DNA of 55,724 nt from a virus (IMGVR_UViG_3300014822_000096:1-55724), one strand, 5' to 3'. Positions 859 through 51,615 are shown, numbered from the stretch's first letter. Notes: a model not told the origin generated them from the sequence alone. Program-made: numbers and translations.

Positions 859-930
859 AGCGGCTGAGAGGAGTCGAACCTCCGTCTTCGGATTATTGCA
901 TCCGAGGCTCTGCCGTTGAGCTACAGCCGC
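859..930 (-). tRNA. tRNA or tRNA-like gene with 8-nt anticodon loop, identity undetermined
   Basis: Reverse complement folds as a cloverleaf: acceptor GCGGCTG/CAGCCGC, TA, D-arm GCTC-AACGGCA-GAGC, anticodon stem TCGGA/TCCGA with loop TGCAATAA, T-arm GGAGG-TTCGACT-CCTCT, discriminator U, no encoded CCA. Confidence 0.85.
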
Positions 931-2239: not shown

Positions 2240-2668
2240 ATGGCGACGACGACGAAGCAAGCGCCGAAGCAGGTGCCCGAGCAGGCGGTGACGCCAACAA
2301 GCCTTCGGAAGGCGTATGACGGCTTCCTGAAGGCGACGGGAGCGCTTGAGCAGGCGGCGTCGGCCGTCAGGGCGCCTGCTCAGGCGTCGAAGCTCAGCGC
2401 CTACTTGGAGCTGAGCGCTGAGAGCACGGTGGAGGCTGTCGAGCAGGCGCTTCCGCGCTTGCTGGCAGCAATCGAAGGCGCAAGGCGTGCAGCGGAGCAG
2501 CTGCATGCTGTCGCCAGTCAGAGTCCGTCTGACTGGAACATCCATTCCAGTACTGGCGCGCAGTTGAACCCGCAGCGGCTCGTGAACATCGCACGCGGAT
2601 CGGCACTTCGCAGCGAAGCTACCGAAAACGCCCGCATCGTGCGGGCGGATCGGGCGTCGCTCAATTGA
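2240..2668 (+). CDS. early hypothetical protein (142 aa, helical)
   Basis: GGAGG then ATG at 2240 (MATTTKQAPK), downstream of the promoter. Confidence 0.8.
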   Translation: MATTTKQAPKQVPEQAVTPTSLRKAYDGFLKATGALEQAASAVRAPAQASKLSAYLELSAESTVEAVEQALPRLLAAIEGARRAAEQLHAVASQSPSDWNIHSSTGAQLNPQRLVNIARGSALRSEATENARIVRADRASLN

Positions 2669-4051
2669 GCGATAGCGCGTCTACGCCCAACGGCGTAGGC
2701 GTGCTTTTACATAGTCGGCAGCGTGCCGCCTACGCTGCCGACGTACGGAATAGGCGGCCGCCTAGTCGGCGCAAGCGGCTTGGCGACGTACTGGACGGGC
2801 TTCGCGCATCGCCTATAATGCGCGCAGTCTATCCGGTCCGTCGGCCGGGCTGGGCGGCCTGCATCGGGCGCGATAGCGTCTACGTCGGCCAGTGATTCGC
2901 TCTACCTACACTGGTATAGTGGATCGCTTGCCCGCGGAACCCGCGCTATTCCCCACTACATCCTCTACGAATAGCGCATCGCGTAGTCGGCGACAGCCTG
3001 CTACCTATTATCCTACGGTAGTATGGCGCAAAGCAGGCCTGCCCGCACGTCGAGCCGTGCGCATGGTAGCCGATGATTCGCCTGTCGGATAAGCTCGCGG
3101 TCCCGCCGCCTATTCCGCCGAGTAGGCGGCGTGGAAGGGGCGCATCGGCGCGCGTCTAGCGTCCGGCGCCACCCGTCCGTACCCTGGCCGCATCCGCTAC
3201 CCCTATCCAGCGGACGGCAAACCCTCACAACGGACGGTCACCGGCCCGAGGCGCAGGGCCCCTATACGCGACCGCATAGCCCTACACGGGGCGAATACCC
3301 CGATCCGGTATTCCCTCGGCTCCCTGCGGTGTAAGCCGTACTACGCCCGACGCGACCACTCCACCTCATCCCATGCCCTACTGCCCGCATCCCCGCACGC
3401 TCCGCGCACAGCGCGACCATGCGGCCCATGCGGACCCTGGTAGGGCGACAGGACCCATAGGCCCCGCCCGTCCTACCGGATGAGCGGGGCCATTCGCACG
3501 CCCCCTCCCGTAGCGGAGCGGTTCCGCCGCGAGAGGCCTACACGGAGGCTCTCTATGCAACACCTCCGTAAGTCCGGCCCCGTCTACGGGGCCTGCCCTG
3601 TGCTCCGTCACCCGACGGAGGCATACCACAGCGCCCCCCTCCCCCGTCCCCGAGGCGGGGCGCCCACGGTGGACGACATACCTGCAGCCCGTGCCGCCCG
3701 CGCACGGGTCCGTCGTTCACCGCGTCGGGGCCAGATCGAAACTCGAATCTGGCCCCACCCGGCCACGGGACGGCGTCGCCCGCGCCGTCCCCGCAACCGA
3801 ACGGCGCGGGCCCGAACCCGCGCCCACGCGGCTCTCGAGGCCTGGGCCCGTGACGCCGCCCTGCAGGCCGCCCTGGCCCGCATCAGGGCGGCCCGCTGAC
3901 CCCCTACCCCCTACCCCCTATCCTCCTACGCAGTCCACCGCTGCCTAGGTGTTTTCCATGCGCCTGTGACGGTCACCGACGCACTGCACGCATCGCCCCT
4001 CTACCCACACACCCTGCTGTGGGAGGGGGGCCTTACTCCAAGGAGTCCGCT

Positions 4052-4384
4052 ATGGCCATTCGCGGAGGAAACGTGTATCTCCCGTCCCCCACGACGGTAG
4101 TCATCGCCCGCTGGCTCTCGTCGATGTACGAGGACGCCAGCCCTCACATGGACTACCACCACTGCCCTCCGGAGGAGCAGCCTCCGGAGGTGCAGCTGTC
4201 CTATGCTCGGCGTATTGTTGCCGAGCTGTCGCAGCAGGAGGCCGCCGGTCACCTCTGGGGCCTGGAGCAGCTCCAGATGGGCGAGACTGCCCTCGCCCAA
4301 GCCCTCCGCGAGAGGGCGGGAAGGCTCCGATATTCTCCGGAGCGGAGGGACTACATCGAGGTTCAGGAGGAGGTGCAGACATGA
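4052..4384 (+). CDS. hypothetical protein
   Basis: AAGGAG then ATG at 4052; ATGA-coupled to the next gene. Confidence 0.75.
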   Translation: MAIRGGNVYLPSPTTVVIARWLSSMYEDASPHMDYHHCPPEEQPPEVQLSYARRIVAELSQQEAAGHLWGLEQLQMGETALAQALRERAGRLRYSPERRDYIEVQEEVQT

Positions 4385-4665
4385 CTCCTCCGCCACTCAT
4401 CGTCACCCGCCACTCCGGCGTAGTCGAATGGCTGCGCCAGCGTGGCATCGAGGGCGAGGTCGTCTCCCATGCCTCGCCCGACACCGTGCGGGAGCGCGTC
4501 GTCTACGGCGTGCTCCCACTCCACCTTGCGGCGGAGGCGGAGGAGGTCATCGCTATCGACCTCCCCAACCTCCGCCCTGACCAGCGGGGCAAAGACTTGA
4601 GCCCCGCCGAAATGGACTCGGCCGGCGCTCGTCTGCGCCGGTACCGCGTAGAGGCGCTAGATTGA
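4381..4665 (+). CDS. csx16: Csx16-like (VVA1548 family) protein, candidate cyclic-oligoadenylate ring nuclease
   Basis: 94 aa with IVTRHSGVVEWL, VYGVLPLHLAA and RGKDLSPAEM..AGARLRRYRV, the Csx16 family pattern. Confidence 0.8.
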   Translation: MTPPPLIVTRHSGVVEWLRQRGIEGEVVSHASPDTVRERVVYGVLPLHLAAEAEEVIAIDLPNLRPDQRGKDLSPAEMDSAGARLRRYRVEALD

Positions 4666-4755
4666 CTGCCACCCCTCGTCTGGAGTCTCCAGACGAGGGT
4701 TTTCATGGGCCTGTGTGGCCCGCAGGATAGGAGATGCACAAGTAAGGAGGTGCAC

Positions 4756-5196
4756 ATGAATCTGCCAGACGGCAAGTGGCTGATCCTCGATGACGATCGC
4801 GGGGACCGCTATGTGGAGGTGCTCAACGGCAAGGTTCTGCCTGAATCCTCGCGGGTGAAGGTGCGGAACTTGCTGTTGGATTGGATGACGCAATACGTCC
4901 ATGAAATGAGGACATATCGCGTCGTCTGCCCGCATAGGGCAGACAGGCCCGCCATCCGTCTGACGCGTGAGCAGGCTGAAAGCGCCATCCAGGGTCCCTA
5001 CGAGGTGGTCCCTTGGTGGCGTGATTCCTCGTTCCTCTACGACGAGGAAGGGAACGTGTACGTCGAGGTGTACCTCGACGACGATGGCCCTGCCTCGTTG
5101 GTGCGGGTGGAGGTGTCGCCGATCCCTTCGCCAAGCGCGTCGAAGACCGAGCGCGAGTTGGTGGAGGAGGTGCGTGAGTTGTCCGAGGTCGAATAA
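4756..5196 (+). CDS. hypothetical protein, paralog of 5980-6474
   Basis: AAGGAGG RBS; LPDGKWL...YVEV...AIQG...YVEV shared with the paralog. Confidence 0.8.
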   Translation: MNLPDGKWLILDDDRGDRYVEVLNGKVLPESSRVKVRNLLLDWMTQYVHEMRTYRVVCPHRADRPAIRLTREQAESAIQGPYEVVPWWRDSSFLYDEEGNVYVEVYLDDDGPASLVRVEVSPIPSPSASKTERELVEEVRELSEVE

Positions 5197-5208
5197 GGAG
5201 ATGCTGGC

Positions 5209-5391
5209 ATGACTCGCATCGAGCGCGACCTGATGGAGTACTGCGGTCTGACTCGCGCTGAGGCGGAGCAGGCGCAGGACGATCTGTGGGACTTGGCCAA
5301 GATTGCCGCCGAGACTGGCGACGATGGCGTGCTGATCGAAGATCTGGAGAGCTTCGGTCTCGACGAGAGGTACGCAGATGACCTTCTCTGA
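5209..5391 (+). CDS. small acidic protein
   Basis: AAGGAG RBS; 60 aa, D/E-rich. Confidence 0.7.
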   Translation: MTRIERDLMEYCGLTRAEAEQAQDDLWDLAKIAAETGDDGVLIEDLESFGLDERYADDLL

Positions 5392-5442
5392 TGACTGTGG
5401 GAGGGAGGTCACACCCGCACACACCACACAGGAGGACCACAT

Positions 5443-5847
5443 ATGACCGATCCTCAACAGCGCGCCGATGACCTCTGCATCGACGACGCACTGGACCTGC
5501 TGGACCTCGTCGGCGACGAGGACTACCGAGCACTGGCCAAGGCTGCGGACGAAATCCGCATCGTCTCCAAGCTCCAACGTGGCGCCTATCTCCGCACATC
5601 CCGCGGCCAGGCCTACGCCATCGACGAACCCGCCTACGAAGGCGTAATCATCCGCCGCATCGGCTACAAGATGCCCGACGGCTCCCTGGAATACGAGGTG
5701 CGCAGGGTCCCCGACCCCGTCCCCGACGCCGTCGCAGCCATCGAGCGCATCCTGGCCAAATACGGCCTGCGCTTCGAGCGCGCCCCCAACGATTCCGCCT
5801 CCGTCGGCTATGCTGTCGGCATCAACGGGAGTCGCATCCCCGTCTGA
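5443..5847 (+). CDS. hypothetical protein, paralog of 6461-6886
   Basis: AGGAGG RBS; DAVAAIERILAKYG matches DAVNSILRIYG. Confidence 0.8.
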   Translation: MTDPQQRADDLCIDDALDLLDLVGDEDYRALAKAADEIRIVSKLQRGAYLRTSRGQAYAIDEPAYEGVIIRRIGYKMPDGSLEYEVRRVPDPVPDAVAAIERILAKYGLRFERAPNDSASVGYAVGINGSRIPV

Positions 5848-5979
5848 CCTCGCTCTCTCTCCCTCTCCTCCGGAGGGCTCGGGCCTAGCGGCTCGGGCCC
5901 TCTGTTGCCGCACACCACAGCACGCACCCTGCACGTCCTCACCCTCACCCTCGGACGTGCACACACAGGAGGATCACAC

Positions 5980-6474
5980 ATGATCTCTCTGCCCAATGGT
6001 AAGTGGCTTGTCCCCAAGCCAGACGGAGACTTCAGCTACGTCGAAGTTGTCGATGGAGAAGTCGTCATCAACGACGACGACAAGATCGTCCGAGACGTAA
6101 TGCGCAACTGGGCATCCCGCTACAACAAAGACCGTGACGCGTACCGAGTAATCGCACCCAAGTACGGCGACATTCACCCACACAAGCTCAACGAATACGA
6201 GCTTCTCAGCGCCATCCAAGGCCTCAACGTGGAAGTCCACCCGTACTGGCCTGGACGTTTCGGACAAGACGAGCTCGGCGACGCCTACGTCTTCATCGAC
6301 ATCAGCCCTGACGATTCCGGCGATTACCACTGGGTCGAAGTAAAAGTCAACCCAGTGCCCAGCGACGGGCTCGTCGGCGGACCTGTCGGCGTCGAACGAT
6401 TCCGCCGGCAGGTGCGTGACCTGCTGGACAAAGCACGCACCCCCAAAGAGGAGCGCACCCATGCCGAAGCATGA
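5980..6474 (+). CDS. hypothetical protein, paralog of 4756-5196
   Basis: AGGAGG RBS; MISLPNGKWL. Confidence 0.8.
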   Translation: MISLPNGKWLVPKPDGDFSYVEVVDGEVVINDDDKIVRDVMRNWASRYNKDRDAYRVIAPKYGDIHPHKLNEYELLSAIQGLNVEVHPYWPGRFGQDELGDAYVFIDISPDDSGDYHWVEVKVNPVPSDGLVGGPVGVERFRRQVRDLLDKARTPKEERTHAEA

Positions 6475-6886
6475 CAAGACCAGCACAGCGAACGAGCTGC
6501 GAGTGACCCTCCAAGAGGCCATCCCAGAGCTGCTCACCTCTGACCGTATCGCCCTTCGCAACTTGGCACGCAGACTTCACGAGATCGACGAGTACGCGTG
6601 CGGCATGCACTGCAACACACGATTCGGTCGTGCCCTGGTCGTCGACGAGTACGACGACGACGGCAAACTCTGGCGATGCTACTACTACGAGCGCAACCTC
6701 CCCACCCGCCGCATCCCGCTCAAGCGAGGGGACGATCCCGATTGGGTCTCCGACGCCGTCAACTCCATCCTCCGCATATACGGCGCAACCTTCCACAAGA
6801 CGTGCCGTGACCCCCGAGGACCAGTCGGCTACATCCGCCGTGAGCGTGACGGTCAGGTTCTCGTCGCCGCCCTCGTCTGGTATTGA
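6461..6886 (+). CDS. hypothetical protein, paralog of 5443-5847
   Basis: GAGGAG RBS; ATG at 6461. Confidence 0.8.
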   Translation: MPKHDKTSTANELRVTLQEAIPELLTSDRIALRNLARRLHEIDEYACGMHCNTRFGRALVVDEYDDDGKLWRCYYYERNLPTRRIPLKRGDDPDWVSDAVNSILRIYGATFHKTCRDPRGPVGYIRRERDGQVLVAALVWY

Positions 6887-7566
6887 CGCTACCATTCAGC
6901 GTCATGGGCGACACAGGCCTGCTCCAGCCTGCCTCCATCACGTCCGTAGCGCCGGGCAAGCCGTGGACCTCGCTATCCCTTGGTCGTGTGATCGACGCAC
7001 AACTCGCCATCGCCACGCTCACCGGCGACAACGTGACCACCGTTGACGAAGCCGAACACGTCCGTTACTCCGGCCTCACCTTCCCGCCCAACGCCACGCC
7101 TGAAGACACCGCAGCCATCGTCGGCGTCATCGTCTCCTACACCGCCTCCTACGTCAAAGACATCCCACAATGCATCGTGGCCGGCCTGGTCCAACTCCGT
7201 AAACCCGACGGCTCCGGCGGCTCCACGCTCGTCGGCGACGTGAAGGCCAACAACTGGCTCACCCTCTCGGGCTCCTCCTACTCCCTCGGCGGCGTTTCCG
7301 ACGATTGGAACGCAGGCCTCCTAGGCTGGCACGTCAAGGACCCCGCCTTCGCCGTCGAACTCACCGTCCGTGGCTTGCGTGACGCAGGCAACACGGGCAC
7401 GTGGCAGTGCCGAGCCCTCCTCGACGGCCTCCTCATCGAGTTCATCTACGACACGCCGCCTCCGCCTCCTCCTCCTCCGCCTCCTCCCCCCGTGGCGCCC
7501 AACACGCCCTTCCTCTACCCCGCCCCACGCACAGCGCCCGGCAATCCACGCATCGGACTCGCCTGA
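6883..7566 (+). CDS. beta-rich domain protein with P12 linker (paralog 1)
   Basis: AAIVGVIV and LGGVSDDWN motifs shared with 7594-8343 and 25913-26560; start uncertain (TTG). Confidence 0.75.
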   Translation: MTLPFSVMGDTGLLQPASITSVAPGKPWTSLSLGRVIDAQLAIATLTGDNVTTVDEAEHVRYSGLTFPPNATPEDTAAIVGVIVSYTASYVKDIPQCIVAGLVQLRKPDGSGGSTLVGDVKANNWLTLSGSSYSLGGVSDDWNAGLLGWHVKDPAFAVELTVRGLRDAGNTGTWQCRALLDGLLIEFIYDTPPPPPPPPPPPPVAPNTPFLYPAPRTAPGNPRIGLA

Positions 7567-7593: not shown

Positions 7594-8343
<750 letters not shown>

Positions 8344-9836: not shown

Positions 9837-10163
9837 ATGACCACACTATCAGCGGATGCGCTCGCCGTAGCGGACACCATCCTATGCGCTGAACGCAAGA
9901 TGCTAAATGAATGCACATCGATTCGGTCTATCTGGCGTCGCACGTGGTCTCGCATTCGGCGCATGAAGGACTGGATGGACGACGAATATTGCGGCTACGT
10001 GAAGTTGCATCCCGAGACTGCGTTAGCAGTGGCTCTCTTGTGTCGTGATCCAGAACGGTCTACCTACGCATGCAAGGCTGCGTTGATCCTGTCCTCACGG
10101 CGGTTGTGGTTACAGACAATCTCGAACCCCAGTGTTTCACTGTATAAAGGAGGAATAGCATGA
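9837..10163 (+). CDS. hypothetical protein
   Basis: AAGGAG RBS. Confidence 0.65.
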   Translation: MTTLSADALAVADTILCAERKMLNECTSIRSIWRRTWSRIRRMKDWMDDEYCGYVKLHPETALAVALLCRDPERSTYACKAALILSSRRLWLQTISNPSVSLYKGGIA

Positions 10164-10456
10164 ACAAGCAAGAAATCAATATATTCAAAGCGATGCACGA
10201 TTTTATAGTGTCGGCGCGAACTGCGTCATTGTCCATTCGTGTAGTCTTGGACGAACTGAAAGCGCCGGAGATGGATTCATTGGAATCGAAAGTCCAAGCG
10301 ACATCAAAGCCTGTCATCCCTACTGCGCTAAGAGATGTAGCGACGCCGTTGACGATGCGATCTTGGAGCCGACGCCTAAATGACGCCAAAGTATGCCTTG
10401 ATGACATCATCGCAATCCTGGAAGATGGCATCAAAAATGAAGGAACGCAGCCATGA
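10160..10456 (+). CDS. hypothetical protein
   Basis: AGGAGG RBS; ATGA overlap. Confidence 0.7.
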   Translation: MNKQEINIFKAMHDFIVSARTASLSIRVVLDELKAPEMDSLESKVQATSKPVIPTALRDVATPLTMRSWSRRLNDAKVCLDDIIAILEDGIKNEGTQP

Positions 10457-10644
10457 CCATCGAGCGCTACAGCGAACGAGGCGCTTACGTTCCATTGTCT
10501 CCGCCTACGCCCGAAGGCAAACAGCGGGCGATTGAGTTTCTGCGGAGATGGGTTAAGACCCCAGACAACAGAGGCAAAGACTACTGGGACGAGTTCGAGC
10601 GGGAGGTATTGGAATGTCGCAACAAACCGAATACGACAAGATGA
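10453..10644 (+). CDS. hypothetical protein
   Basis: AAGGA RBS; ATGA overlap. Confidence 0.6.
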   Translation: MTIERYSERGAYVPLSPPTPEGKQRAIEFLRRWVKTPDNRGKDYWDEFEREVLECRNKPNTTR

Positions 10645-10910
10645 TCGCTGACCCGCATAAGCGGTTTCACTTGTGCGTCGAGTTGAGCATGATCGAGCCC
10701 ATCGAAGCTTTGTGGCGTCTGCTCGAAGAGCACAACGTGACCCTGGGCGAACTCGCGCTCCGCGCCAGAATGCGGTTGTCTACGGTGACAGCGATCATGC
10801 ACGACGAACGTCCACCTGATCTACGTGAACTCGCCCAACTGTTTGCAGCTCTCGACCACGTTATCACCGCAGATGGAATCAAACCATTGAAGGAGGACAG
10901 TACGCCATGA
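10614..10910 (+). CDS. XRE/Cro-C1 type HTH regulator
   Basis: LLEEHNVTLGELALRARMRLSTVTAIMHDERPPDLRELAQLFAAL fits the XRE pattern. Confidence 0.75.
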   Translation: MSQQTEYDKMIADPHKRFHLCVELSMIEPIEALWRLLEEHNVTLGELALRARMRLSTVTAIMHDERPPDLRELAQLFAALDHVITADGIKPLKEDSTP

Positions 10911-11194
10911 ACGACTTGGGTCCTGTCGCAGAATGGCTGGTGTACTTCGGCGTGGGCGTTGTGCTGCCTGTCGCCATCGCACTTCTTGCGGCTGCTCTTG
11001 CAGGCGGTCGCAAATACTTTGCTCTGAAGGGGAAGGATGATGATGCAGCGAATGAGGCTTTAGTCATATCGACTGTAGTCTGCATGTTGGTGTGGATGGC
11101 GGCGCTGTTCATATCGCTGAATGTTCTCATAGACCATCCGCCGCACAGGCAACAGCAGGACGGTGACCAATGCCCCCCGACAGCAACCCAATGA
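10907..11194 (+). CDS. membrane protein with two TM segments
   Basis: two hydrophobic segments; AGGAGG RBS. Confidence 0.7.
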   Translation: MNDLGPVAEWLVYFGVGVVLPVAIALLAAALAGGRKYFALKGKDDDAANEALVISTVVCMLVWMAALFISLNVLIDHPPHRQQQDGDQCPPTATQ

Positions 11195-11655
11195 TAGACG
11201 ACTACGCGCGCAGTCTATTACACCTCTGTACCTTGTTTAGCCAGCACATTGGAAATGAATCCGCTGTCGCCATGCGCATCATAAACCCAATCGCTGACTG
11301 TAGAGGTTGCGAAATCAACATTGAGGCTGACGCGGGCTCTGCGAGAATCCATGCATACCCTGAAACCCTGGACGAGGGCGAAGAGGTTCTCGATTTTATT
11401 GTGTGCAACCTCACTAGATACCACGGGCAGTGTCGTTTATGTCCGATTGTCGCTGTTGTCTTGTCAGCTGCATGGAGTCTCGACGCAGCCAATGCCATAT
11501 TATCCAGCCGTTACATTTACCAGAAACTCATGATGCGCAGCGAGTTCAACAAACTACTACGCCTATGCACACGGAAACCCGAAACGATATCTGGTTGGTA
11601 TCGGACTCGTAGTCAAATCTTGTCTTGCACAAACACAAACACCAGACTCACGTGA
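11170..11655 (+). CDS. hypothetical Cys-rich protein
   Basis: ORF in operon; start may be 11191. Confidence 0.55.
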   Translation: MPPDSNPMIDDYARSLLHLCTLFSQHIGNESAVAMRIINPIADCRGCEINIEADAGSARIHAYPETLDEGEEVLDFIVCNLTRYHGQCRLCPIVAVVLSAAWSLDAANAILSSRYIYQKLMMRSEFNKLLRLCTRKPETISGWYRTRSQILSCTNTNTRLT

Positions 11656-11742
11656 TCGCCGTAAAGTCTCTCCACGCCCGAAGGTCGGGTGCGGAGATGA
11701 ATCGGCATGGGCTAATCAGCCCGCAAGAAAGGAGGATGCACA

Positions 11743-11868
11743 ATGCATCTCACCGGCGAACTGGTGTCGGAGACGGTCGAGCCCAAGACTGTCTTCGACG
11801 AGGAATATGAGGAGCTGGAGCAGACTCAGCAGGAGGCACAGGAGGCACACGCTGGCGTAGGGGCATGA
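11743..11868 (+). CDS. 41-aa acidic peptide (not in the ORF track)
   Basis: AAGGAGG RBS; MHLTGELVSETVEPKTVFDEEYEELEQTQQEAQEAHAGVGA; followed by a terminator. Confidence 0.6.
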   Translation: MHLTGELVSETVEPKTVFDEEYEELEQTQQEAQEAHAGVGA

Positions 11869-11884
11869 GACTGGAGGCCCCCCT

Positions 11885-11922
11885 GGCCCCTGCGGTCGCA
11901 AGGCCGCAAGGGGCCTTTCTTA
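11885..11922 (+). terminator. intrinsic terminator
   Basis: GGCCCCTGCGGTC-GCAA-GGCCGCAAGGGGCC then TTTCTT. Confidence 0.65.
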
Positions 11923-11967
11923 TGCAGTCGTTCGATGGTCGAACGCTGCACTTGCAAGGAGACGGTT

Positions 11968-12282
11968 ATGAGCAAGAAAACAAGCGAGTAAGAAAAGGAC
12001 TTGTTGAAGTCGCTGGCTACTGAGGTCGCACACCTCCAGAATGCCATATCGGATCTGACCCACACCGCAATGGATGTTGCAATGTTGGTTCATACCGACG
12101 ACTACCAGCAGCGTCTGGAGCTGGTTCGACACATTCTGTACTACGTGAAGGAAGCTACAAGCCCCTGGATGAATCAGCGCGTCGGAGACTTCTGCCGATA
12201 CTTGAGCGCCAGCAAGCGCGACGCGGCCCTTGAGGCTATCGCATACGTGGATGAGGAGGAGGAGGAGGAGGACGACACCTGA
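11968..12282 (+). pseudogene. paralog of 14215-14541 with in-frame TAA at codon 8, or a TTG-start gene from 12001
   Basis: AAGGAG then ATG 11968, TAA 11989-11991, frame continues; DDYQ.R..L.RHI..YV.E...W...RVGDFC shared with the paralog. Confidence 0.55.
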
Positions 12283-12300
12283 CGGGTGAGGAGGTAGCTG

Positions 12301-13200
12301 ATGTCCAACGGACGCATTGATGTATTCAGGTCCTACAAGGACCTTTGCAGGTGGCTCGGACACGAGCCGCATCGCAGGCCGATGACTCTGGAGGAGTATC
12401 AGCTGTGGAAACTCGCTGCCGAACGACTACCGCTCGCCCACCGCGTCCACGGGCTCTTCGGCTTCGGCGTCGATCAGCACTACGAGAAGCATCTGGCTGA
12501 AATAATGATCCGGCGTTCAATGCAGTTGCGTTACAGTCGCAGGCTCGACAGGATCCGAGTCTATACCCGTACTGTGTTCCGGCGCTACCGCGATGGGTTA
12601 CGCCTGATCGCGGAGCGCGCGGAGATGGGCGCCACACCGATGTGGCAGGTGGAGCGCGGCTTTGTGGAGCTGTCGCCGCGATCGTTCAGCGCACGGCGTG
12701 CTGTCAGACACGTAGCGAGGGATCGCATGCAGTCTCGCACACGGCGCGGTCTGCGCGCTCCCGATGGCGGCCTATGGGGCGTGCGAGAGTTTTCCATAGG
12801 AGGCGGCAAGCTCATCTCGCCTATCATGAAAACGGTCTGGGAACGTCCTGCTCTTGTAGCCAACACGTTCGATGACTCGACTGAGGTGAAGGGCGCTGCT
12901 GGCATCCATGCATGTTGGCCAGCGTGGCCTCACGCATGTCGTGATTACTCTGCCGCAGTTTATGGATTGGTTCGTGGCTATGGCCGCACCGTACAAGGCG
13001 ACAACGGCTGGCGCGCCGAGCGCGTCATCATCGAGGCGCTGCTGGTGCGATCCAGGGATCTGGAGAAGGAGCTGCGCCGGTCATACCCCGAGGCGTTGGT
13101 GCACTACATCCCGATCGACGAACGCATCTGCATCCGGAACGATCCGTTCGAGCGGATCATGCTTCATTACTCTATTCGCATGAAGGAGGAGGTCGCGTAG
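12301..13200 (+). CDS. conserved hypothetical enzyme-like protein (tandem paralog 1)
   Basis: GAGGAGG RBS; DGGLWGVR, GIHA and LVRGYGRTVQGDxGWRAERVIIEA. Confidence 0.8.
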   Translation: MSNGRIDVFRSYKDLCRWLGHEPHRRPMTLEEYQLWKLAAERLPLAHRVHGLFGFGVDQHYEKHLAEIMIRRSMQLRYSRRLDRIRVYTRTVFRRYRDGLRLIAERAEMGATPMWQVERGFVELSPRSFSARRAVRHVARDRMQSRTRRGLRAPDGGLWGVREFSIGGGKLISPIMKTVWERPALVANTFDDSTEVKGAAGIHACWPAWPHACRDYSAAVYGLVRGYGRTVQGDNGWRAERVIIEALLVRSRDLEKELRRSYPEALVHYIPIDERICIRNDPFERIMLHYSIRMKEEVA

Positions 13201-14145
13201 ATGGGCCGGCACCCCGCACTACGTTCATGGGATGACATGATTGAGTATTACAACTTCATCGGCGACACAATCTTCGAGCCGCAAACATGCACGGGTTCGT
13301 ATATTGCCAGCCGTGCTGCGTGTCTGCCATTGGGCCATCGTGTCTTCCGGCTCAATGCGTTCGGTGTGCACGCAGGAGAGGTGTCTGCCCTGAATGATCT
13401 GCTGGCGAAGCGCCATGCTCTGCTGTCGGAACGGAGTATGCGTCGACTCCGTCGTGACACTCCTGACTGGGAGTTTCCCGTCCGTCGCTATCGCTGTGGA
13501 GCCGTGCTGGCCGCGAGGCGCATGAGGTTTGGAGGCCCGTACCTGTACCGCGTCTACATGGATGGTGCGCCTGTCGTCGATCTATACTACCACGATAGGC
13601 GCACCGCATTACGATGCGCGGTCTACGCCCTCCAATGCACAGGCCGACACAGATATCGCCGTGGCGCCAAGTCGTCTGACGGCGGCCTGTGGGGTGTGCG
13701 GACATTCGAGACTGTCTGGAAGCATGGCCGGCGCTGGCTTATGTCCCCTTACACACACACCCTATGGACAACACCAGCGCTCGCTGAACGAAGGTTCGAT
13801 GATTCGAACGAGGTGCGCGAAGCACGCGGTATACACGCCAACTGGCCAGGACGGAGGCATGCGTCCAGAGGAGTGAGCTGGCTACCCCTGTTGGAAGCAC
13901 ACACGGCTCTGGCGCTGGTTCGTGGCTACGGTAGGACAGTGCAAGGCGACGAAGGCTGGCGCGCCGAGCGCGTCATCATCGAGGCGGTGCTGGCGCCTGA
14001 AGAGCGCATGGCGCGCGAGCTGCGCCAGACATACCCAGAGGTCAACGTGATCCTGTGGAAGGACGGATACGAGAGCATCAATGCGTTCAACGACCCCCTC
14101 GACGCAATCATCCGAAATGACGCAAATCAGGCGAAAGCGACATAG
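13201..14145 (+). CDS. conserved hypothetical enzyme-like protein (tandem paralog 2)
   Basis: same motifs; 33-nt exact identity between 13006-13038 and 13954-13986. Confidence 0.8.
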   Translation: MGRHPALRSWDDMIEYYNFIGDTIFEPQTCTGSYIASRAACLPLGHRVFRLNAFGVHAGEVSALNDLLAKRHALLSERSMRRLRRDTPDWEFPVRRYRCGAVLAARRMRFGGPYLYRVYMDGAPVVDLYYHDRRTALRCAVYALQCTGRHRYRRGAKSSDGGLWGVRTFETVWKHGRRWLMSPYTHTLWTTPALAERRFDDSNEVREARGIHANWPGRRHASRGVSWLPLLEAHTALALVRGYGRTVQGDEGWRAERVIIEAVLAPEERMARELRQTYPEVNVILWKDGYESINAFNDPLDAIIRNDANQAKAT

Positions 14146-14214
14146 CACTTCCGCATGCCCGACGGTCGGGCGTGAGATCGCACGCAGTATCGGCCAACAT
14201 AAAGGAGCCACAAA

Positions 14215-14541
14215 ATGAGCGAAAAGTCGAAAGCCAAACGCGACGCCAAACAAGAGGCCGTCATGGACTCGCTTGCAAACAGCGTAGATGCCGTAGTTAC
14301 TTCAAAATGGAATCTGGCCAAATACGCCATGCGTTTCGCAGCCTTGGTCGAAGATGACTACCAGCTCCGCGTCTGCCTGGCAAGACATATCGTGAACTAC
14401 GTGTGCGAGTCCAGTCCACTTTGGCCGTCGATACGCGTCGGAGACTTCTGCGAGAACTTGCGCGCTGGGAACATCGACGACGCTATAGCCGCCATCGGCT
14501 ATGACCCTGACGAATGCGAGTGCGAGGAGGAGTCATGCTGA
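14215..14541 (+). CDS. hypothetical protein, paralog of 11968-12282
   Basis: AAGGAG RBS; acidic C-terminus. Confidence 0.75.
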   Translation: MSEKSKAKRDAKQEAVMDSLANSVDAVVTSKWNLAKYAMRFAALVEDDYQLRVCLARHIVNYVCESSPLWPSIRVGDFCENLRAGNIDDAIAAIGYDPDECECEEESC

Positions 14542-14912
14542 TAGAATCATGGAAAATAGATAAAATCAAACCCTATAACAATCACCCACGGGTGAACGAG
14601 TTGGCGGTGGCCGCAGTCGCCAAGAGCATCCGGATGTTCGGCTTCCGCCAACCGATCGTCGTCGACACCGATGGCGTGGTCCTCGCAGGCCACACCAGAC
14701 TCAAGGCCGCTTCGATCCTTGGTATGGAATATGTTGATGTGGATGTGGCGATTGGGATCGAAAGGGAGAAGTTACGTGCCTTTCGGCTCGTAGACAATGC
14801 AATCCACGAGTTATCACGTTGGAACAAAGACCTCTTGGCGCGCGAACTTGAAGCTGTTCGCACGGCTGGAGTTGATGTATCACAGATGGGATTCGATCGT
14901 GATACTCCATAG
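14535..14912 (+). CDS. stand-alone ParB/Srx N-terminal domain protein
   Basis: IKPYNNHPR, SIRMFGFRQPIVVD and LAGHTRLKAA. Confidence 0.88.
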   Translation: MLIESWKIDKIKPYNNHPRVNELAVAAVAKSIRMFGFRQPIVVDTDGVVLAGHTRLKAASILGMEYVDVDVAIGIEREKLRAFRLVDNAIHELSRWNKDLLARELEAVRTAGVDVSQMGFDRDTP

Positions 14913-15155
14913 GGACCCAAGGAAACCGAGGGCTATGACGAATGACTAAGAATATCGCACAAGGCAACACTGCTGCAGATATAAGCGTGCCGGCGCACAT
15001 CTTCGTTAGACGACCGAACGGCAAACTCATAGATTTACATATTCGCAAGGCGTCTTCACGGCCGAGAGGCCGCGCTGAGTCTTTTCCCTGCGCTCGACGT
15101 TCGGGTGCGGAACCACACACGTGCGATAACACGCCCTAACAAAGGAGGTACACCG

Positions 15156-15419
15156 ATGTACACAGCATCGTCAGTTTCCATGGAAAAACTGAAAGAGGAT
15201 TTTGCTGCTGTCGCCGAGGAACCTGAGATTCTTCAGCGGATGTTGGCGTACCAAGGCGCACGAACGGCTTTGGTCGATGCGCTCGTGAGCCGTTATGGCG
15301 CAGCGCCTGAGCGACATCTTCCTGCTGCTCGTGTGCTAGATTGGGCACGAGGTCTCTCAAGCGCTAGCCTCATTGTAGTCGCAGAGGCATATCTGCAAGA
15401 GCAGGAGGATCAACAGTAA
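15156..15419 (+). CDS. hypothetical protein
   Basis: AAGGAGG RBS; ATG at 15156. Confidence 0.7.
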   Translation: MYTASSVSMEKLKEDFAAVAEEPEILQRMLAYQGARTALVDALVSRYGAAPERHLPAARVLDWARGLSSASLIVVAEAYLQEQEDQQ

Positions 15420-15461
15420 CCTGAACAACATATGGAGATGCATAAATAAAGGAGCAACCAA

Positions 15462-15929
15462 ATGAGCAATAAGACGGAAGAAGCGAGTGAGAATATTTAC
15501 ACTGTTCCTATTGACGATCAAAGGGCGATGACTCTAGCTTACATCGTGTGGGATATTTTCTATTACCTTGAAGGAGCAGTCACAAAGATCAGGCTAAGAG
15601 ATTCCCTGATTGAAGCACTAAAGGAACAAGGTGTTCGATTGTATCCAGGTTGGTATGTAGGTGTCTTCGGCGAAAAGAAGATTTCCCTGATGCGCATAGG
15701 TGAAAACAACACAGTGTTGGCAAATGACGTTTATGACGATATGGAATCTGCATGTAAGCGTGTTGGCGTCTCTATCGAAGATGCTCCTGGGACGGACCAG
15801 GCTGACTGGCTGCACGGAGCCAAGCATCTTCTCATGTGGTTGATCTTCGATGTTGCTTTTATACCGCCCGACGCCGTCGTTTACGCACCTTTGCTGTTGG
15901 GTGGTGACAAGGACGAGACAAATGGCTGA
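15462..15929 (+). CDS. hypothetical protein
   Basis: AAGGAG RBS. Confidence 0.75.
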   Translation: MSNKTEEASENIYTVPIDDQRAMTLAYIVWDIFYYLEGAVTKIRLRDSLIEALKEQGVRLYPGWYVGVFGEKKISLMRIGENNTVLANDVYDDMESACKRVGVSIEDAPGTDQADWLHGAKHLLMWLIFDVAFIPPDAVVYAPLLLGGDKDETNG

Positions 15930-49638: not shown

Positions 49639-51615
49639 TCATAGAGCGGTCTTCACTTCACCCCCCGATTCTACTGTACGGAGCACTGTCCGTCTAGCGT
49701 CGCGTGATCGGAGGATTTCGGCGAGCACGTCCGCTCTGTGGGCGTAGGGAATGCCGGACTCGTCCACCGTGGCGCCGTTGCGGATGCGTTCGAGGATGTC
49801 TTCGAGCGATTCCTCCTCTGGGCCCGTGTCCGGTCGCTGCAGAGCTGCAGGCGTGCGCACGATGTGTTGGGGCATGGCGAGCACCGTGTCGATCAGGTCG
49901 TCGTGGCGGAGACCGCAGTCCTGCGCAGTCGGATTGAACCCTTCGATCTGGAGGAAGAGGTCAGACCACGGCTGACGGTCTCGCATGAAAAACGGCAACT
50001 TGATCTTGCCGTAGTCGAAACGCCACTTGGCGGACGCGATGCGGGACGCCTTATCCGTGAAGCCAGGTTTGTAGGGCACGATGGCCGGCGTGTGGGACAC
50101 GCCCATTGTGGAGATGGCGTCCGTGCGGATGGACGCAAGGAGTGCGTCGCACAACTGGATGCCCTCGCGGATAGCCTCGGGGTGGATGGTGGGGACACGC
50201 CACTTCTCCGCCATAGCGAGGATGGCGTGAATCTGTTCATCCAGCGTGCAGCGGGACTGCCACAGGTCGAGCACGAACTGCGAACCGGATGGATGTATGG
50301 CGATGACTGCGGCGGTCTTGTAATCGGACGTTGGACCTGTGGACCATGAGGTGTCCGAAGTCATGAAGACGAGGCATTGCGAGAGCAAATCGGGGAGGGT
50401 GGCGTCGTGGGTCTCGCCATCTTCCATCCACTCGATGACGGCGGACGACTTGAGCGGCTCGGTGTTCAGGAAGCCGTCTCCTGTGCCCTTGCGTATCCAC
50501 CAGCCGTGCGTGTGCTCCGAGAGTTCGCCGAAGTGCAGACCGTCTCCTGCGCCTGGCGCGCCCATCATCTCGGCGGCCCACACGTCAGGCCCCATCTCTC
50601 GCCTGACCTCGCCCACGGTGCGGACGGAGGCGTCGAGGCCAAGGCGTTCACGTTCGGCTGCGTCGATGGGGATGAGGTGAGGCCAGAACGAGTGTTCGCG
50701 TCCGTCCTTGTCCTTGTAGATGGCGGGCACGAACATCTTGCTCCACGAGCGGAAGATGGGCATTTCGCCGATCTGCGAGCCGTCTGGACCGACGACAGTC
50801 TGCATGGCCGACCACAGCAGGTGTCTACGGCTCACGAATGTGCCCAGCCACATGAGTTGGCTGTCCATGTGTGTCATCATGGGCAGGATGATGCGCGTGA
50901 TGAGGCGTTGCATCTGGGCGCGGAGTTTCTCCATCGACGTGGAGCCGGCGGGATCGTATTCGGGATCGTCGAGGACATAGAGCAGTGGGCGTAGGCCGCG
51001 CTGGCGGGAATCGACGCCCGTGAAGCGAATCTGCGAGCGGTTGACGAGCGAGAAGTAATCGACGCCCGTTGAGCCTTGACCGGACGGCGGCTTGAGCGTG
51101 CCTGCGTCGTATTCGGGTCCGAAGTCTTCAGCGATGCGGGGATTCATGTAGCACTGCTCGCGAAGCCTCTCGGCGTGTGGCTTGTAGACGGACTCAGTGG
51201 ACGTGCAATAGACGCACTTGTAGACGGGTCTTGTGACGAGTCGGAGCAGGATTTCCTTGAGCGTTGTCGTAGACTTGGCGGAGCCGCGGGGGAGGACAGC
51301 CATGCTCAGGCGGTGCGTGGCGTGCATCCGCATGAGGAGTTTGTGACACAGCGGTGTCGGCAGAGGATCGGCCTCGTAGAAGTACGAGTTGAAGATGGTG
51401 TTGCCGTCTTCGTCGTATTCGGGTCGGAGATAGTAGGAATCCATGAAGGTGACGGAGGCTTCGTAGAGCGTCGCCTTCTCTTCAGTCGTACGCGCCTTGA
51501 TGAGCCACTGTCTGCATGCGTTGACGCGAGCGAGCCGCTTGCCCTCCTCGGTCAGGGAGTCATAGTCGGGCGGCAGCGGCCAGTTGGGTCCATGCTTTAC
51601 ACGCTTCGCGAGCAT
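49639..51615 (-). CDS. terL: terminase large subunit
   Basis: Walker A LPRGSAKST, RGLRP..YVLDDPE, nuclease SDTS...SDY and HDDLIDT. Confidence 0.9.
   Translation of the reverse strand: MLAKRVKHGPNWPLPPDYDSLTEEGKRLARVNACRQWLIKARTTEEKATLYEASVTFMDSYYLRPEYDEDGNTIFNSYFYEADPLPTPLCHKLLMRMHATHRLSMAVLPRGSAKSTTTLKEILLRLVTRPVYKCVYCTSTESVYKPHAERLREQCYMNPRIAEDFGPEYDAGTLKPPSGQGSTGVDYFSLVNRSQIRFTGVDSRQRGLRPLLYVLDDPEYDPAGSTSMEKLRAQMQRLITRIILPMMTHMDSQLMWLGTFVSRRHLLWSAMQTVVGPDGSQIGEMPIFRSWSKMFVPAIYKDKDGREHSFWPHLIPIDAAERERLGLDASVRTVGEVRREMGPDVWAAEMMGAPGAGDGLHFGELSEHTHGWWIRKGTGDGFLNTEPLKSSAVIEWMEDGETHDATLPDLLSQCLVFMTSDTSWSTGPTSDYKTAAVIAIHPSGSQFVLDLWQSRCTLDEQIHAILAMAEKWRVPTIHPEAIREGIQLCDALLASIRTDAISTMGVSHTPAIVPYKPGFTDKASRIASAKWRFDYGKIKLPFFMRDRQPWSDLFLQIEGFNPTAQDCGLRHDDLIDTVLAMPQHIVRTPAALQRPDTGPEEESLEDILERIRNGATVDESGIPYAHRADVLAEILRSRDARRTVLRTVESGGEVKTAL

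What the first reader, a model, noticed from the sequence alone, without database searches (positions are those of the whole stretch)
4381..4665. Phage-encoded Csx16-like protein: candidate anti-type III CRISPR ring nuclease
Seen: a 94-aa protein with TRH, GVLPLHLAA and RGKDLS motifs in the early region, with no cas genes or array in the genome. Known: Csx16 normally accompanies type III CRISPR loci and is linked to cyclic oligoadenylate degradation; viral ring nucleases such as AcrIII-1, a different family, act as anti-CRISPRs. Inference: it neutralises host cOA signalling, and the neighbouring small genes (4052-6886) may be further anti-defence factors.
Basis: partly seen in the sequence, partly recalled or inferred. 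Interest (0 to 1): 0.75.

Follow-up and report, generated by a model that had tools for sequence, protein, structure and literature searches.

The report
Phage-borne Csx16 ring nuclease gene
A complete uncultured phage genome carries a small, intact gene of the Csx16 family, enzymes that bacteria use to destroy the alarm molecule of type III CRISPR immunity, so it probably switches that defence off, a known viral tactic that has not been tested for this family.

Summary
ORF 4381-4665 (+, 94 aa) carries the three motifs and matches Pfam Cas_VVA1548/Csx16 end to end (75.2 bits, cut-off 25) and three PADLOC Csx16 models. The window is a complete 55.7-kb tailed-phage record with no Cas10, RAMP or CRISPR array. 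Csx16 is a published cA4-specific ring nuclease, already counted in two phage genomes (PMC12409355, passages). This scan has also noted phage Csx16 on other DNA (26 earlier notes). The kind is therefore known and the anti-CRISPR role untested.

New here: the protein falls in a virus-associated Csx16 clade (23 viral contigs, the window and 4 cas-less cellular contigs; SH-aLRT 96). All 67 cas-linked cellular Csx16 lie outside it. 0 of 28 clade members reach the level of NCBIfam's Csx16 cut-off, against 67 of 67 cas-linked ones. The window keeps 13 of 14 positions conserved in both clades, folds confidently, is modelled as a homodimer (0.72 against best control 0.14) and closes a two-gene unit before a terminator-like hairpin. 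The idea that neighbouring genes are anti-defence factors has no support. The host is unknown.

The parts
4052..4384 (+). Upstream gene U (110 aa from ATG 4052; the longest frame starts at GTG 4019). Function unknown. It is translationally coupled to csx16 through an ATGA stop/start overlap.
   Evidence: ORF list. AAGGAG lies 7 nt before ATG 4052. The overlap is seen. No Pfam, PHROG or PADLOC family. The ESM Atlas gave no informative relative, best structural TM 0.47. No relative near other Csx16 genes.
4381..4665 (+). csx16: a 94-aa stand-alone Csx16-family protein, a candidate viral cA4 ring nuclease (anti-type III CRISPR).
   Evidence: PF09652 75.2 bits. PADLOC Csx16 best E 1.7e-20. TIGR02620 35.6 bits, below its cut-off of 46.35. 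AF2 pLDDT 97.2. Homodimer model 0.72 against best control 0.14. It keeps 13 of 14 positions conserved in both clades.
4673..4704 (+). Intrinsic-terminator-like hairpin (12-bp stem with 8 G-C pairs, 3-nt loop) followed by TTTTC. It ends the U-csx16 unit.
   Evidence: Terminator scan: 3 sites found in 2500-7200 against a shuffle mean of 1.5. RNA fold of 4660-4715: -25.5 kcal/mol, z -3.23, 1 of 200 shuffles as good.

Best explanation
The gene encodes a stand-alone, homodimeric Csx16-type ring nuclease made by the phage. During infection of a host whose type III CRISPR complex senses phage RNA and makes cyclic tetra-adenylate (cA4), the enzyme would bind cA4 in the pocket formed across the dimer. 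That pocket is lined by the family-conserved TRH loop after strand 1 and the RG loop after strand 4. The enzyme would cut cA4 to linear products, so cA4-activated effectors such as Card1, Csx1 or Can2 stay off and the phage escapes. In function it is an AcrIII-1-like enzymatic anti-CRISPR built on a different fold. Shown here: family membership, conserved residues, a confident fold, a dimer model that passes its controls, orphan status in a complete phage, recurrence in unrelated phages, and purifying selection. Taken from the literature: cA4-specific cleavage by a cellular Csx16. Inferred: that this viral subfamily cleaves cA4, that it is expressed early enough, and that the unknown host has a cA4-signalling type III system.
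For: Family: PF09652 at 75.2 bits against a cut-off of 25, nearly full profile length. Three PADLOC Csx16 models match, best E 1.7e-20. Conserved positions: 14 positions are >=85% conserved in both the viral and the cas-linked clade (R10 H11 G13 W17 G22 G38 V41 G43 L45 P46 R69 G70 G82 A83), and the window keeps 13. Fold: AF2 pLDDT 97.2, pTM 0.86, five strands alternating with helices. This fits the published description of a 5-stranded sheet flanked by helices (PMC12409355, passages). Dimer: ipSAE 0.72 (three runs 0.70-0.73) against a best control of 0.14. In the tool's calibration this mark was reached by 20 of 30 proteins solved as pairs of one chain and by 1 of 23 solved as single chains. 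The runs agree in at least 96% of contacts and the partner's pLDDT is at least 88. The interface is residues 44-60 and 86-94. My own alignment and two AMP were used, so the calibration holds only roughly. Activity of the family: Csx16 fully degraded cA4, not cA6 or cA3, in vitro (PMC12409355). Context: a complete phage (TerL, primase, PolA) with no Cas10, RAMP or array. Recurrence: 25 of 25 further IMG/VR records carry Csx16 above the Pfam cut-off, and 7 of them have terminal repeats. 0 of 25 have cas-gene neighbours, against 67 of 80 cellular loci. 0 of 25 have a detectable relative of this phage's TerL, and the positive control rang. Selection: dN/dS 0.22-0.25 in the 3 of 8 pairs where dS was computable. 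Cellular Csx16 neighbours include the cA4-activated nuclease Card1 in 30 of 80 loci.
Against: No biochemical or genetic test exists for any viral Csx16. Two library searches found none. The protein belongs to a subfamily that differs from the CRISPR-linked one. It scores 35.6 bits on TIGR02620 (cut-off 46.35). 0 of 28 clade members reach about that level, against 67 of 67 cas-linked ones. The clade lacks positions that are >=85% conserved only in cas-linked proteins, such as D39, C54, G57 and P65. The window also has E in place of the G38 conserved in both clades. Which Csx16 was assayed, and which residues the authors regard as key, is in supplements I could not open. The host is unknown, since TerL and PolA have only distant, uncultured or unrelated relatives. 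A cA4-signalling type III system in the host is therefore assumed. The timing of expression is unknown. No solved structure supports the fold: 0 Foldseek matches at E <= 0.001 in PDB or BFVD.
Confidence: 0.65

Rival explanations
1. It is an anti-defence protein with different chemistry from the assayed cellular Csx16. It could be a cOA sponge that binds without fast turnover, as proposed for Csx15. Or it could be a nuclease with a shifted or broader substrate range (cA3, cA6, CBASS-type signals).
For: The viral clade is separated from cas-linked Csx16 by a supported branch (SH-aLRT 96). It lacks several positions conserved only in the cas-linked clade, and 0 of 28 members reach the TIGR02620 cut-off level. 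Related small CARF-like proteins differ in activity: Csx15 is a good cA4 binder but a very slow nuclease, and Crn4 is broad-spectrum (PMC13148439 and PMC12830947, abstracts and passages).
Against: The positions conserved across both clades, including R10-H11 and R69-G70, are retained, which argues for the same core chemistry. The Csx15 paper argues that sponging is a poor strategy against the large cOA amounts made by type III systems, and notes that Csx15 was not seen in phages (PMC13148439).
Confidence: 0.2
2. It has no counter-defence role. It could be a recently captured host gene carried as a passenger, or a Csx16-fold protein used for a phage-internal purpose unrelated to host immunity.
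For: No functional data exist. The host is unknown. The gene is not linked to any recognisable anti-defence gene. Its neighbours are not conserved across phages.
Against: The gene recurs in 25 other viral records with no detectable relative of this phage's TerL. It forms a virus-enriched clade rather than scattered recent captures. It is under purifying selection where that is measurable. It has an SD motif, translational coupling and a terminator.
Confidence: 0.1
3. It is an ankyrin-repeat-like protein, as the PDB sequence search might suggest.
For: A profile of the family hit 223 PDB sequences at E <= 1, and the 60 shown were designed or natural ankyrin repeat proteins (best 2.2e-11). The cause is that the motif G-x-L-P-L-H-L-A-A resembles the ankyrin consensus (the consensus is from my recall).
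Against: Each match covers only about 30 residues, and the scores add up over repeats of the target. The model is a mixed beta/alpha fold, not helical repeats. Pfam reports no ankyrin family at E <= 1. No ankyrin structure appears among the listed Foldseek matches.
Confidence: 0.01

Closest known systems
Cellular CRISPR-associated Csx16 (Pfam PF09652 Cas_VVA1548; NCBIfam TIGR02620), a cA4-specific ring nuclease (Hoikkala et al. 2025, PMC12409355)
   Same: Same Pfam family over nearly the full profile. Same size class. It shares the positions conserved in both clades, including R10, H11, G43, P46, R69 and G70. The model has five strands alternating with helices and a homodimer.
   Different: It is not next to cas genes, whereas 67 of 80 cellular loci have cas neighbours. 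It lies on the other side of a supported branch and below the TIGR02620 cut-off. It lacks the positions conserved only in cas-linked proteins (D39, C54, G57, P65) and has E at G38. Its activity is untested.
Csx16 homologue gp03 of Methanobacterium virus Drs3 (NC_062738 / MH674343), the only cultured-virus match found
   Same: A small stand-alone Csx16 gene among small hypothetical genes in a tailed virus. It is annotated only as 'putative CRISPR-associated protein (Cas_VVA1548)'.
   Different: 42% identity only, in an archaeal virus. Hoikkala et al. count Csx16 in two phage genomes of the Millard set. Whether these are the two Drs3 records is in a supplement I could not see.
AcrIII-1 / Crn2 (DUF1874), the viral ring nuclease anti-CRISPR (Athukoralage et al. 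2020, known to me from the passages)
   Same: The proposed role and logic are the same: a small dimeric viral enzyme that degrades cA4 and so blinds all cA4-activated effectors.
   Different: It is an unrelated family. No DUF1874 match appeared at E <= 1 in Pfam, and none among the listed Foldseek PDB matches. AcrIII-1 has been tested in vivo and this protein has not.
Csx20, Csx15, Crn4 and the viral SAVED ring nuclease AcrIII-2: other small ring nucleases with phage copies or phage relevance
   Same: The literature makes the same point for them: phage or plasmid copies of CRISPR ring nucleases 'may function as anti-CRISPRs' (PMC12830947 abstract; PMC13148439 passages; PMC12751052 title and abstract start from the listing).
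   Different: They are different families. None matched this protein in Pfam or NCBIfam at E <= 1.

Membership tests
Csx16 (Pfam PF09652 Cas_VVA1548) | Profile match above Pfam's gathering score over most of the domain | tested here: met
   75.2 bits against a cut-off of 25, E 4.7e-21, profile positions 2-90 of 91. The genome-level search gave 74.5 bits, with 0 of 14 control genomes ringing. Three PADLOC Csx16 models match.
Csx16 in the strict NCBIfam sense (TIGR02620, hypothetical equivalog domain) | Score at or above the curated cut-off of 46.35 bits | tested here: not met
   35.6 bits. At E <= 4.6e-12, which is my conversion of the cut-off from the score/E pair, 0 of 28 viral-clade members match and 67 of 67 cas-linked ones do.
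Csx16 | Family-conserved residues (the authors screened candidates by 'absolutely conserved residues'; their list is in a closed supplement) | tested here: met
   In my own alignments, all 6 invariant columns of 28 diverse homologues are kept. 13 of the 14 positions >=85% conserved in both clades are kept, the exception being G38 to E.
Csx16 | Small CARF-like fold: a 5-stranded sheet flanked by helices | tested here: met
   The AF2 model has pLDDT 97.2 and five strands alternating with helices. The description comes from PMC12409355. No solved structure is available to compare: 0 Foldseek matches at E <= 0.001.
Csx16 | Homodimer forming the cOA site | tested here: met
   Score 0.72 against a best control of 0.14. 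The mark was reached by 20 of 30 solved pairs of one chain and 1 of 23 single chains. Contacts agree in at least 96% and pLDDT is at least 88. This is a model, not a measurement.
Csx16 | Encoded in or next to a type III CRISPR-Cas locus | tested here: not met
   No Cas10 palm, RAMP or array in the complete phage genome. 67 of 80 cellular loci do have cas neighbours. This is expected for a viral copy.
Csx16 | Cleaves cA4 to linear products | not testable with these tools
   Needs purified protein and HPLC. Published for one cellular Csx16 only.
Anti-CRISPR (AcrIII class, defined by function) | [quoted passage not shown] | not testable with these tools
   No report for any viral Csx16 in the library.
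AcrIII-1 / Crn2 (DUF1874) | DUF1874 profile or fold match | tested here: not met
   No such family at E <= 1. Not among the listed Foldseek PDB matches.
Ankyrin repeat | Helical repeat fold and an ankyrin profile match | tested here: not met
   Only motif-level hits of about 30 residues to designed ankyrins. The model is beta/alpha and Pfam reports no ankyrin family.

The most novel reading that the evidence does not exclude
The virus-associated Csx16 clade is a distinct, unnamed family of enzymatic type III anti-CRISPRs that spreads horizontally among unrelated uncultured phages. The clade here holds 23 IMG/VR contigs, this phage and 4 cas-less contigs, at least one of them with integrase and ParB-like neighbours. 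Its sequence differences from CRISPR-linked Csx16 (loss of D39, C54, G57, P65; gain of L18, V27, M78) would reflect tuning for attack, meaning faster turnover or a wider cOA range, in the way AcrIII-1 outpaces cellular ring nucleases.
Probability: 0.3. Interest if true: 0.6.

Novelty: new member of a known kind. Interest (0 to 1): 0.4.

Why it matters
Type III CRISPR defence depends on cOA signalling, and only a few viral counter-measures have been tested. Csx16 has been shown to cleave cA4 in vitro for a cellular enzyme, and has only been counted, not studied, in phages. This window offers a clean test case: a 94-aa stand-alone gene in a complete phage. The comparison made here suggests that phage copies are not occasional captures. 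They form their own clade, found in at least 25 other viral contigs with no detectable relative of this phage's TerL. If the clade is active, it adds a second widespread enzymatic AcrIII family and a compact cA4-degrading tool. It would also matter for guard systems such as Panoptes, which detect phages that deplete cyclic nucleotides (known to me from abstract starts in the listing and passages). The gain is incremental, because the concept, the family's activity and its presence in phages are all already published.

Tried and rejected
1. Megablast of the first 20 kb against 50,697 phage records gave no match. tblastn with PolA gave 716 records, all under 60% identity and none covering 80%. 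TerL relatives reach at most 44% identity and are all uncultured. So there is no close cultured relative and no host assignment.
2. The PDB sequence-profile search returned only ankyrin or DARPin proteins through a motif resemblance, and I rejected these.
3. Foldseek against PDB and BFVD gave 0 matches at E <= 0.001. A few CARF proteins (Cad1, Cam1) appear among non-significant hits, and I do not count them.
4. Neighbouring genes U, A1, S, B1, A2 and B2 have no family above a curated cut-off in Pfam and no match in PHROG or PADLOC. BLAST against all ORFs of 105 Csx16 loci and 87 homologues gave nothing better than E 0.23. The ESM Atlas gave nothing informative for U.
5. A2 against 1.84 billion representatives gave 6 hits. 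Only itself and A1 are full-length. The rest are short stretches in FG-GAP, PAS or unnamed repeat proteins, which I read as not homologous.
6. I tested the earlier-scan lead that an 'all-beta domain' accompanies phage ring nucleases, using a look-up by sequence with A1 and with Csx16. Nothing was found.
7. I checked whether the 150-160-aa Csx16 forms are fusions with something like U. 13 of 87 have an N-terminal and 10 of 87 a C-terminal extension of more than 40 aa, but none resembles U.
8. Ten further + strand ORFs had no Pfam family, and 8 of 10 large ORFs had no PHROG.
9. The promoter scan of 2500-7200 found 1 site against 0.6 expected, which is not evidence.
10. The ARAGORN tRNA-Ser at 3798-3873 was not confirmed by Rfam.
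11. The search for related loci with the 28-row alignment failed for lack of a conserved stretch. I repeated it with 11 closer rows.

Full report
**1. The observation**

- The + strand ORF 4381-4665 encodes 94 residues with TRH at 9-11, GVLPLHLAA at 43-51 and RGKDLS at 69-74.
- In DNA of 60.8% G+C, ORFs of this length occur in every frame, so length alone proves nothing.
- The protein matches Pfam PF09652 (Cas_VVA1548, Csx16) at E 4.7e-21. The score is 75.2 bits against a gathering score of 25, over profile positions 2-90 of 91.
- It matches three PADLOC Csx16 models, best E 1.7e-20, and the Csx16 part of two fused CARF models.
- 87 of 93 scored database candidates are relatives at E <= 0.001. 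All carry PF09652, and the best non-self identity is 76%.
- GAGGAGG lies before the ATG. The ATG overlaps the stop of the upstream gene (ATGA). A 12-bp hairpin followed by TTTTC begins 8 nt after the stop. Its fold energy is -25.5 kcal/mol, z -3.23, with 1 of 200 shuffles as good.

**2. What the window is**

- It is a whole IMG/VR virus record of 55,724 bases with direct terminal repeats and a CheckV completeness of 100%. The repeat is 99 bases. That is a common assembler word size (my knowledge), so the coordinate origin may be arbitrary.
- A large terminase (phrog_38, E 4.7e-33) lies at 49642-51615 on the - strand, and a DNA primase at 53986-55539 on the + strand. A family A DNA polymerase, a PD-(D/E)XK nuclease and an AAA_24 ATPase lie on the + strand.
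- From the ORF map, the + strand arm runs from the primase across the origin to about 31 kb. The - strand arm, 31.6-53.7 kb, holds the terminase and large unnamed proteins.
- csx16 therefore lies about 6 kb into the replication (non-structural) arm. 'Early region' is plausible but not shown.
- No Cas10 palm domain and no RAMP was found, while the controls rang in 6 and 5 of 14 known genomes. There is no CRISPR-like array.
- The phage has no close cultured relative. Its terminase relatives, at most 44% identical, are all uncultured. The host is unknown.

**3. What is known**

- I read passages of Hoikkala et al. 2025 (PMC12409355).
  - Csx16 and Csx20 were predicted ring nucleases and are now confirmed. 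Purified Csx16 fully degraded cA4, but not cA6 or cA3.
  - AF3 models show a dimer with conserved residues around modelled AMP sites.
  - Csx16 occurred in 68 type III loci.
  - Among 28,114 Millard phage genomes, AcrIII-1 was in 36, Csx20 in four and Csx16 in two.
- In my tblastn of 50,697 phage records, the only matches were two records of one virus, Methanobacterium virus Drs3 (42% identity). There the gene is annotated 'putative CRISPR-associated protein' and sits among small hypothetical genes.
- Later papers from the same group say that viruses encode ring nucleases as anti-CRISPRs, and cite Csx16 only as a cellular enzyme (PMC13148439 and PMC12830947, abstracts and passages).
- Two library searches ('Csx16'; 'ring nuclease' + 'anti-CRISPR' + 'phage' + 'type III', from 2024) found no test of a viral Csx16.
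- This scan has 26 earlier notes on phage Csx16 in at least 25 other genomes. It has none on this genome or on look-alike sequence.

**4. Relatives, and a virus-associated clade**

- A pattern search built from 11 close homologues found 25 IMG/VR contigs. All 25 carry Csx16 above the Pfam cut-off. Seven have terminal repeats and four are rated at least 90% complete.
- The same alignment found 132 relatives in GTDB species genomes, of which the tool kept the best 80.
- I clustered all ORFs of at least 150 aa from these 105 loci and the window. I named one representative for each of ten large clusters with Pfam. They were Cas1, three RAMP groups, Cmr3, Cas10/Cmr2, Card1 (the cA4-activated nuclease) and Cas_NE0113. 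Two clusters had no family.
- 67 of 80 cellular loci have at least one of these cas clusters. 44 have a type III core gene, 33 have Cas10 and 30 have Card1. 0 of 25 viral loci and nothing in the window have any.
- I built a quick maximum-likelihood tree of all 106 Csx16 domains, with no rows dropped. It uses 109 columns, SH-aLRT support only and a midpoint root.
  - One branch with support 96 sets apart 28 rows: 23 viral, the window and 4 cas-less cellular contigs (L027, L028, L029, L034).
  - All 67 cas-linked proteins lie on the other side.
- Exceptions to the pattern:
  - Viral L022 groups with cas-less archaeal contigs outside the clade.
  - Viral L023 sits just outside the clade on a long branch.
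  - 9 cas-less cellular loci, several on short contigs, fall among the cas-linked ones.
- Of the 4 cas-less contigs inside the clade:
  - L028 has an integrase and a ParB-like gene nearby.
  - L029 has a phage-type DnaB helicase.
  - L034 gave nothing informative.
  - L027 is only 2.7 kb and was not scanned.
- The sampling favours relatives of the window. Even so, the nearest cas-linked proteins remain outside the clade.
- NCBIfam's stricter model separates the two sets.
  - The window scores 35.6 bits on TIGR02620, whose cut-off is 46.35.
  - At an E-value I derived as equal to that cut-off, 0 of 28 clade members match and 67 of 67 cas-linked ones do.

**5. Is the machinery intact?**

- Fourteen positions are at least 85% conserved in both sets: R10 H11 G13 W17 G22 G38 V41 G43 L45 P46 R69 G70 G82 A83. 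The window keeps 13 and has E at position 38.
- Positions conserved only in cas-linked proteins (among them D39, C54, G57, P65) are not kept in the viral clade. The viral clade has its own conserved L18, V27 and M78.
- AlphaFold2 with 28 sequences gives pLDDT 97.2 and pTM 0.86, with five strands alternating with helices.
- A two-copy model with two AMP scored 0.72, against 0.14 for the best of three controls.
  - In the tool's calibration the mark was reached by 20 of 30 proteins solved as pairs of one chain and by 1 of 23 solved as single chains.
  - The runs agree in at least 96% of contacts, and the partner's pLDDT is at least 88.
  - The calibration holds only roughly, because my own alignment and a ligand were used.
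  - The interface is the GVLPLHLAA helix region (44-60) and the C-terminal strand (86-94).
- That TRH and RG line the cOA pocket is my inference, from their position after strands and from the published models. I had no coordinates to check it.
- No solved relative exists. Foldseek found 0 matches at E <= 0.001 in PDB and BFVD. The PDB sequence hits are ankyrin motif artefacts.
- Purifying selection is visible where synonymous change is not saturated. dN/dS was 0.22 (L004/L006, dS 0.61), 0.25 and 0.22 (window against L004 and L002, dS 1.2-1.5). The other 5 of 8 pairs were saturated.

**6. Surroundings**

- The upstream gene U (ATG 4052 with AAGGAG, 110 aa) is coupled to csx16, and the pair ends at the hairpin.
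- U has no family and no informative Atlas relative.
- Beyond the hairpin lies a tandemly duplicated two-gene cassette.
  - A1 (4756-5196) and A2 (5977-6474) are 37% identical (E 6e-22).
  - B1 (5443-5847) and B2 (6416-6886) are 30% identical (E 5e-6).
- None of these genes matches a family above a curated cut-off in Pfam, or any PHROG or PADLOC model.
- In the first 12 kb of the window, csx16 is the only gene shared with the 25 viral loci. None of the six neighbours has a BLAST hit better than E 0.23 in any Csx16 locus.
- A2 has only itself and A1 as full-length matches among 1.84 billion representatives.
- 0 of the 25 Csx16-bearing viral records has a detectable relative of this phage's terminase, and the control on the window's own record rang. 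The gene has therefore spread among unrelated phages.

**7. Verdict**

- The gene is a genuine, intact Csx16-family member in a complete phage. Its most likely role is to degrade cA4 and so blunt type III CRISPR signalling (confidence 0.65).
- It works like AcrIII-1 but belongs to a different family.
- It meets the Pfam definition of Csx16 but not NCBIfam's equivalog-level cut-off, and it lies in a virus-associated subfamily.
- The concept, the enzyme family and its presence in phages are all published, so it is a new member of a known kind.
- What this analysis adds is the virus-enriched clade and its clean separation from CRISPR-linked Csx16. That deserves a biochemical comparison.

Noticed in passing
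window 859-930 (- strand): A tRNA gene confirmed by Rfam (RF00005, 56.4 bits). ARAGORN assigns it no amino acid and a four-base anticodon 'caat'. Reading the sequence, the anticodon stem encloses an 8-nt loop instead of 7. It may be a quadruplet-reading or otherwise unusual phage tRNA.
   Followed up: partly
window 4756-6886 (+ strand): A tandem duplication of a two-gene cassette lies just after the csx16 terminator: A1 4756-5196 / B1 5443-5847 and A2 5977-6474 / B2 6416-6886. A1/A2 are 37% identical (E 6e-22) and B1/B2 30% (E 5e-6). The family is essentially orphan: only self and paralogue are full-length hits among 1.84 billion representatives.
   Followed up: partly
window 6883-7566 and 7594-8343 (+ strand): Two adjacent ORFs each contain a long poly-proline run (12 and about 20 P), encoded by CCG/CCT repeats. 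Neither has a Pfam or PADLOC family.
   Followed up: no
window 2668-4019: About 1.3 kb upstream of the U-csx16 unit has no convincing ORF. ARAGORN calls a tRNA-Ser(CGA) at 3798-3873 on the - strand, which Rfam does not confirm at gathering score. One promoter-like site lies at 2792-2819, no more than expected by chance.
   Followed up: partly
Csx16 family alignment A1; window residues 43-51: The Csx16 motif G-x-L-P-L-H-L-A-A resembles the ankyrin-repeat consensus closely enough that a family profile hits designed ankyrin proteins in PDB at E down to 2e-11. This is a trap for automated annotation.
   Followed up: yes
L028 (Planctomycetia MAG contig), about 9872-15910: A viral-clade Csx16 in a 'cellular' contig lies within 5 kb of a ParB-like gene and an integrase. 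This suggests an integrated or plasmid-like mobile element carrying the same candidate anti-CRISPR.
   Followed up: partly
proteins P0002-P0087: Csx16 homologues come in two length classes. 13 of 87 have an N-terminal and 10 of 87 a C-terminal extension of more than 40 residues. I did not test whether these are real extra domains or start or stop miscalls.
   Followed up: no
L022 (viral record G021, terminal repeats): One viral Csx16 lies outside the viral clade and groups with cas-less contigs of methanogen MAGs (Methanoregula, Methanobacteriota). This hints at a separate archaeal-virus lineage of Csx16, as in Drs3.
   Followed up: no
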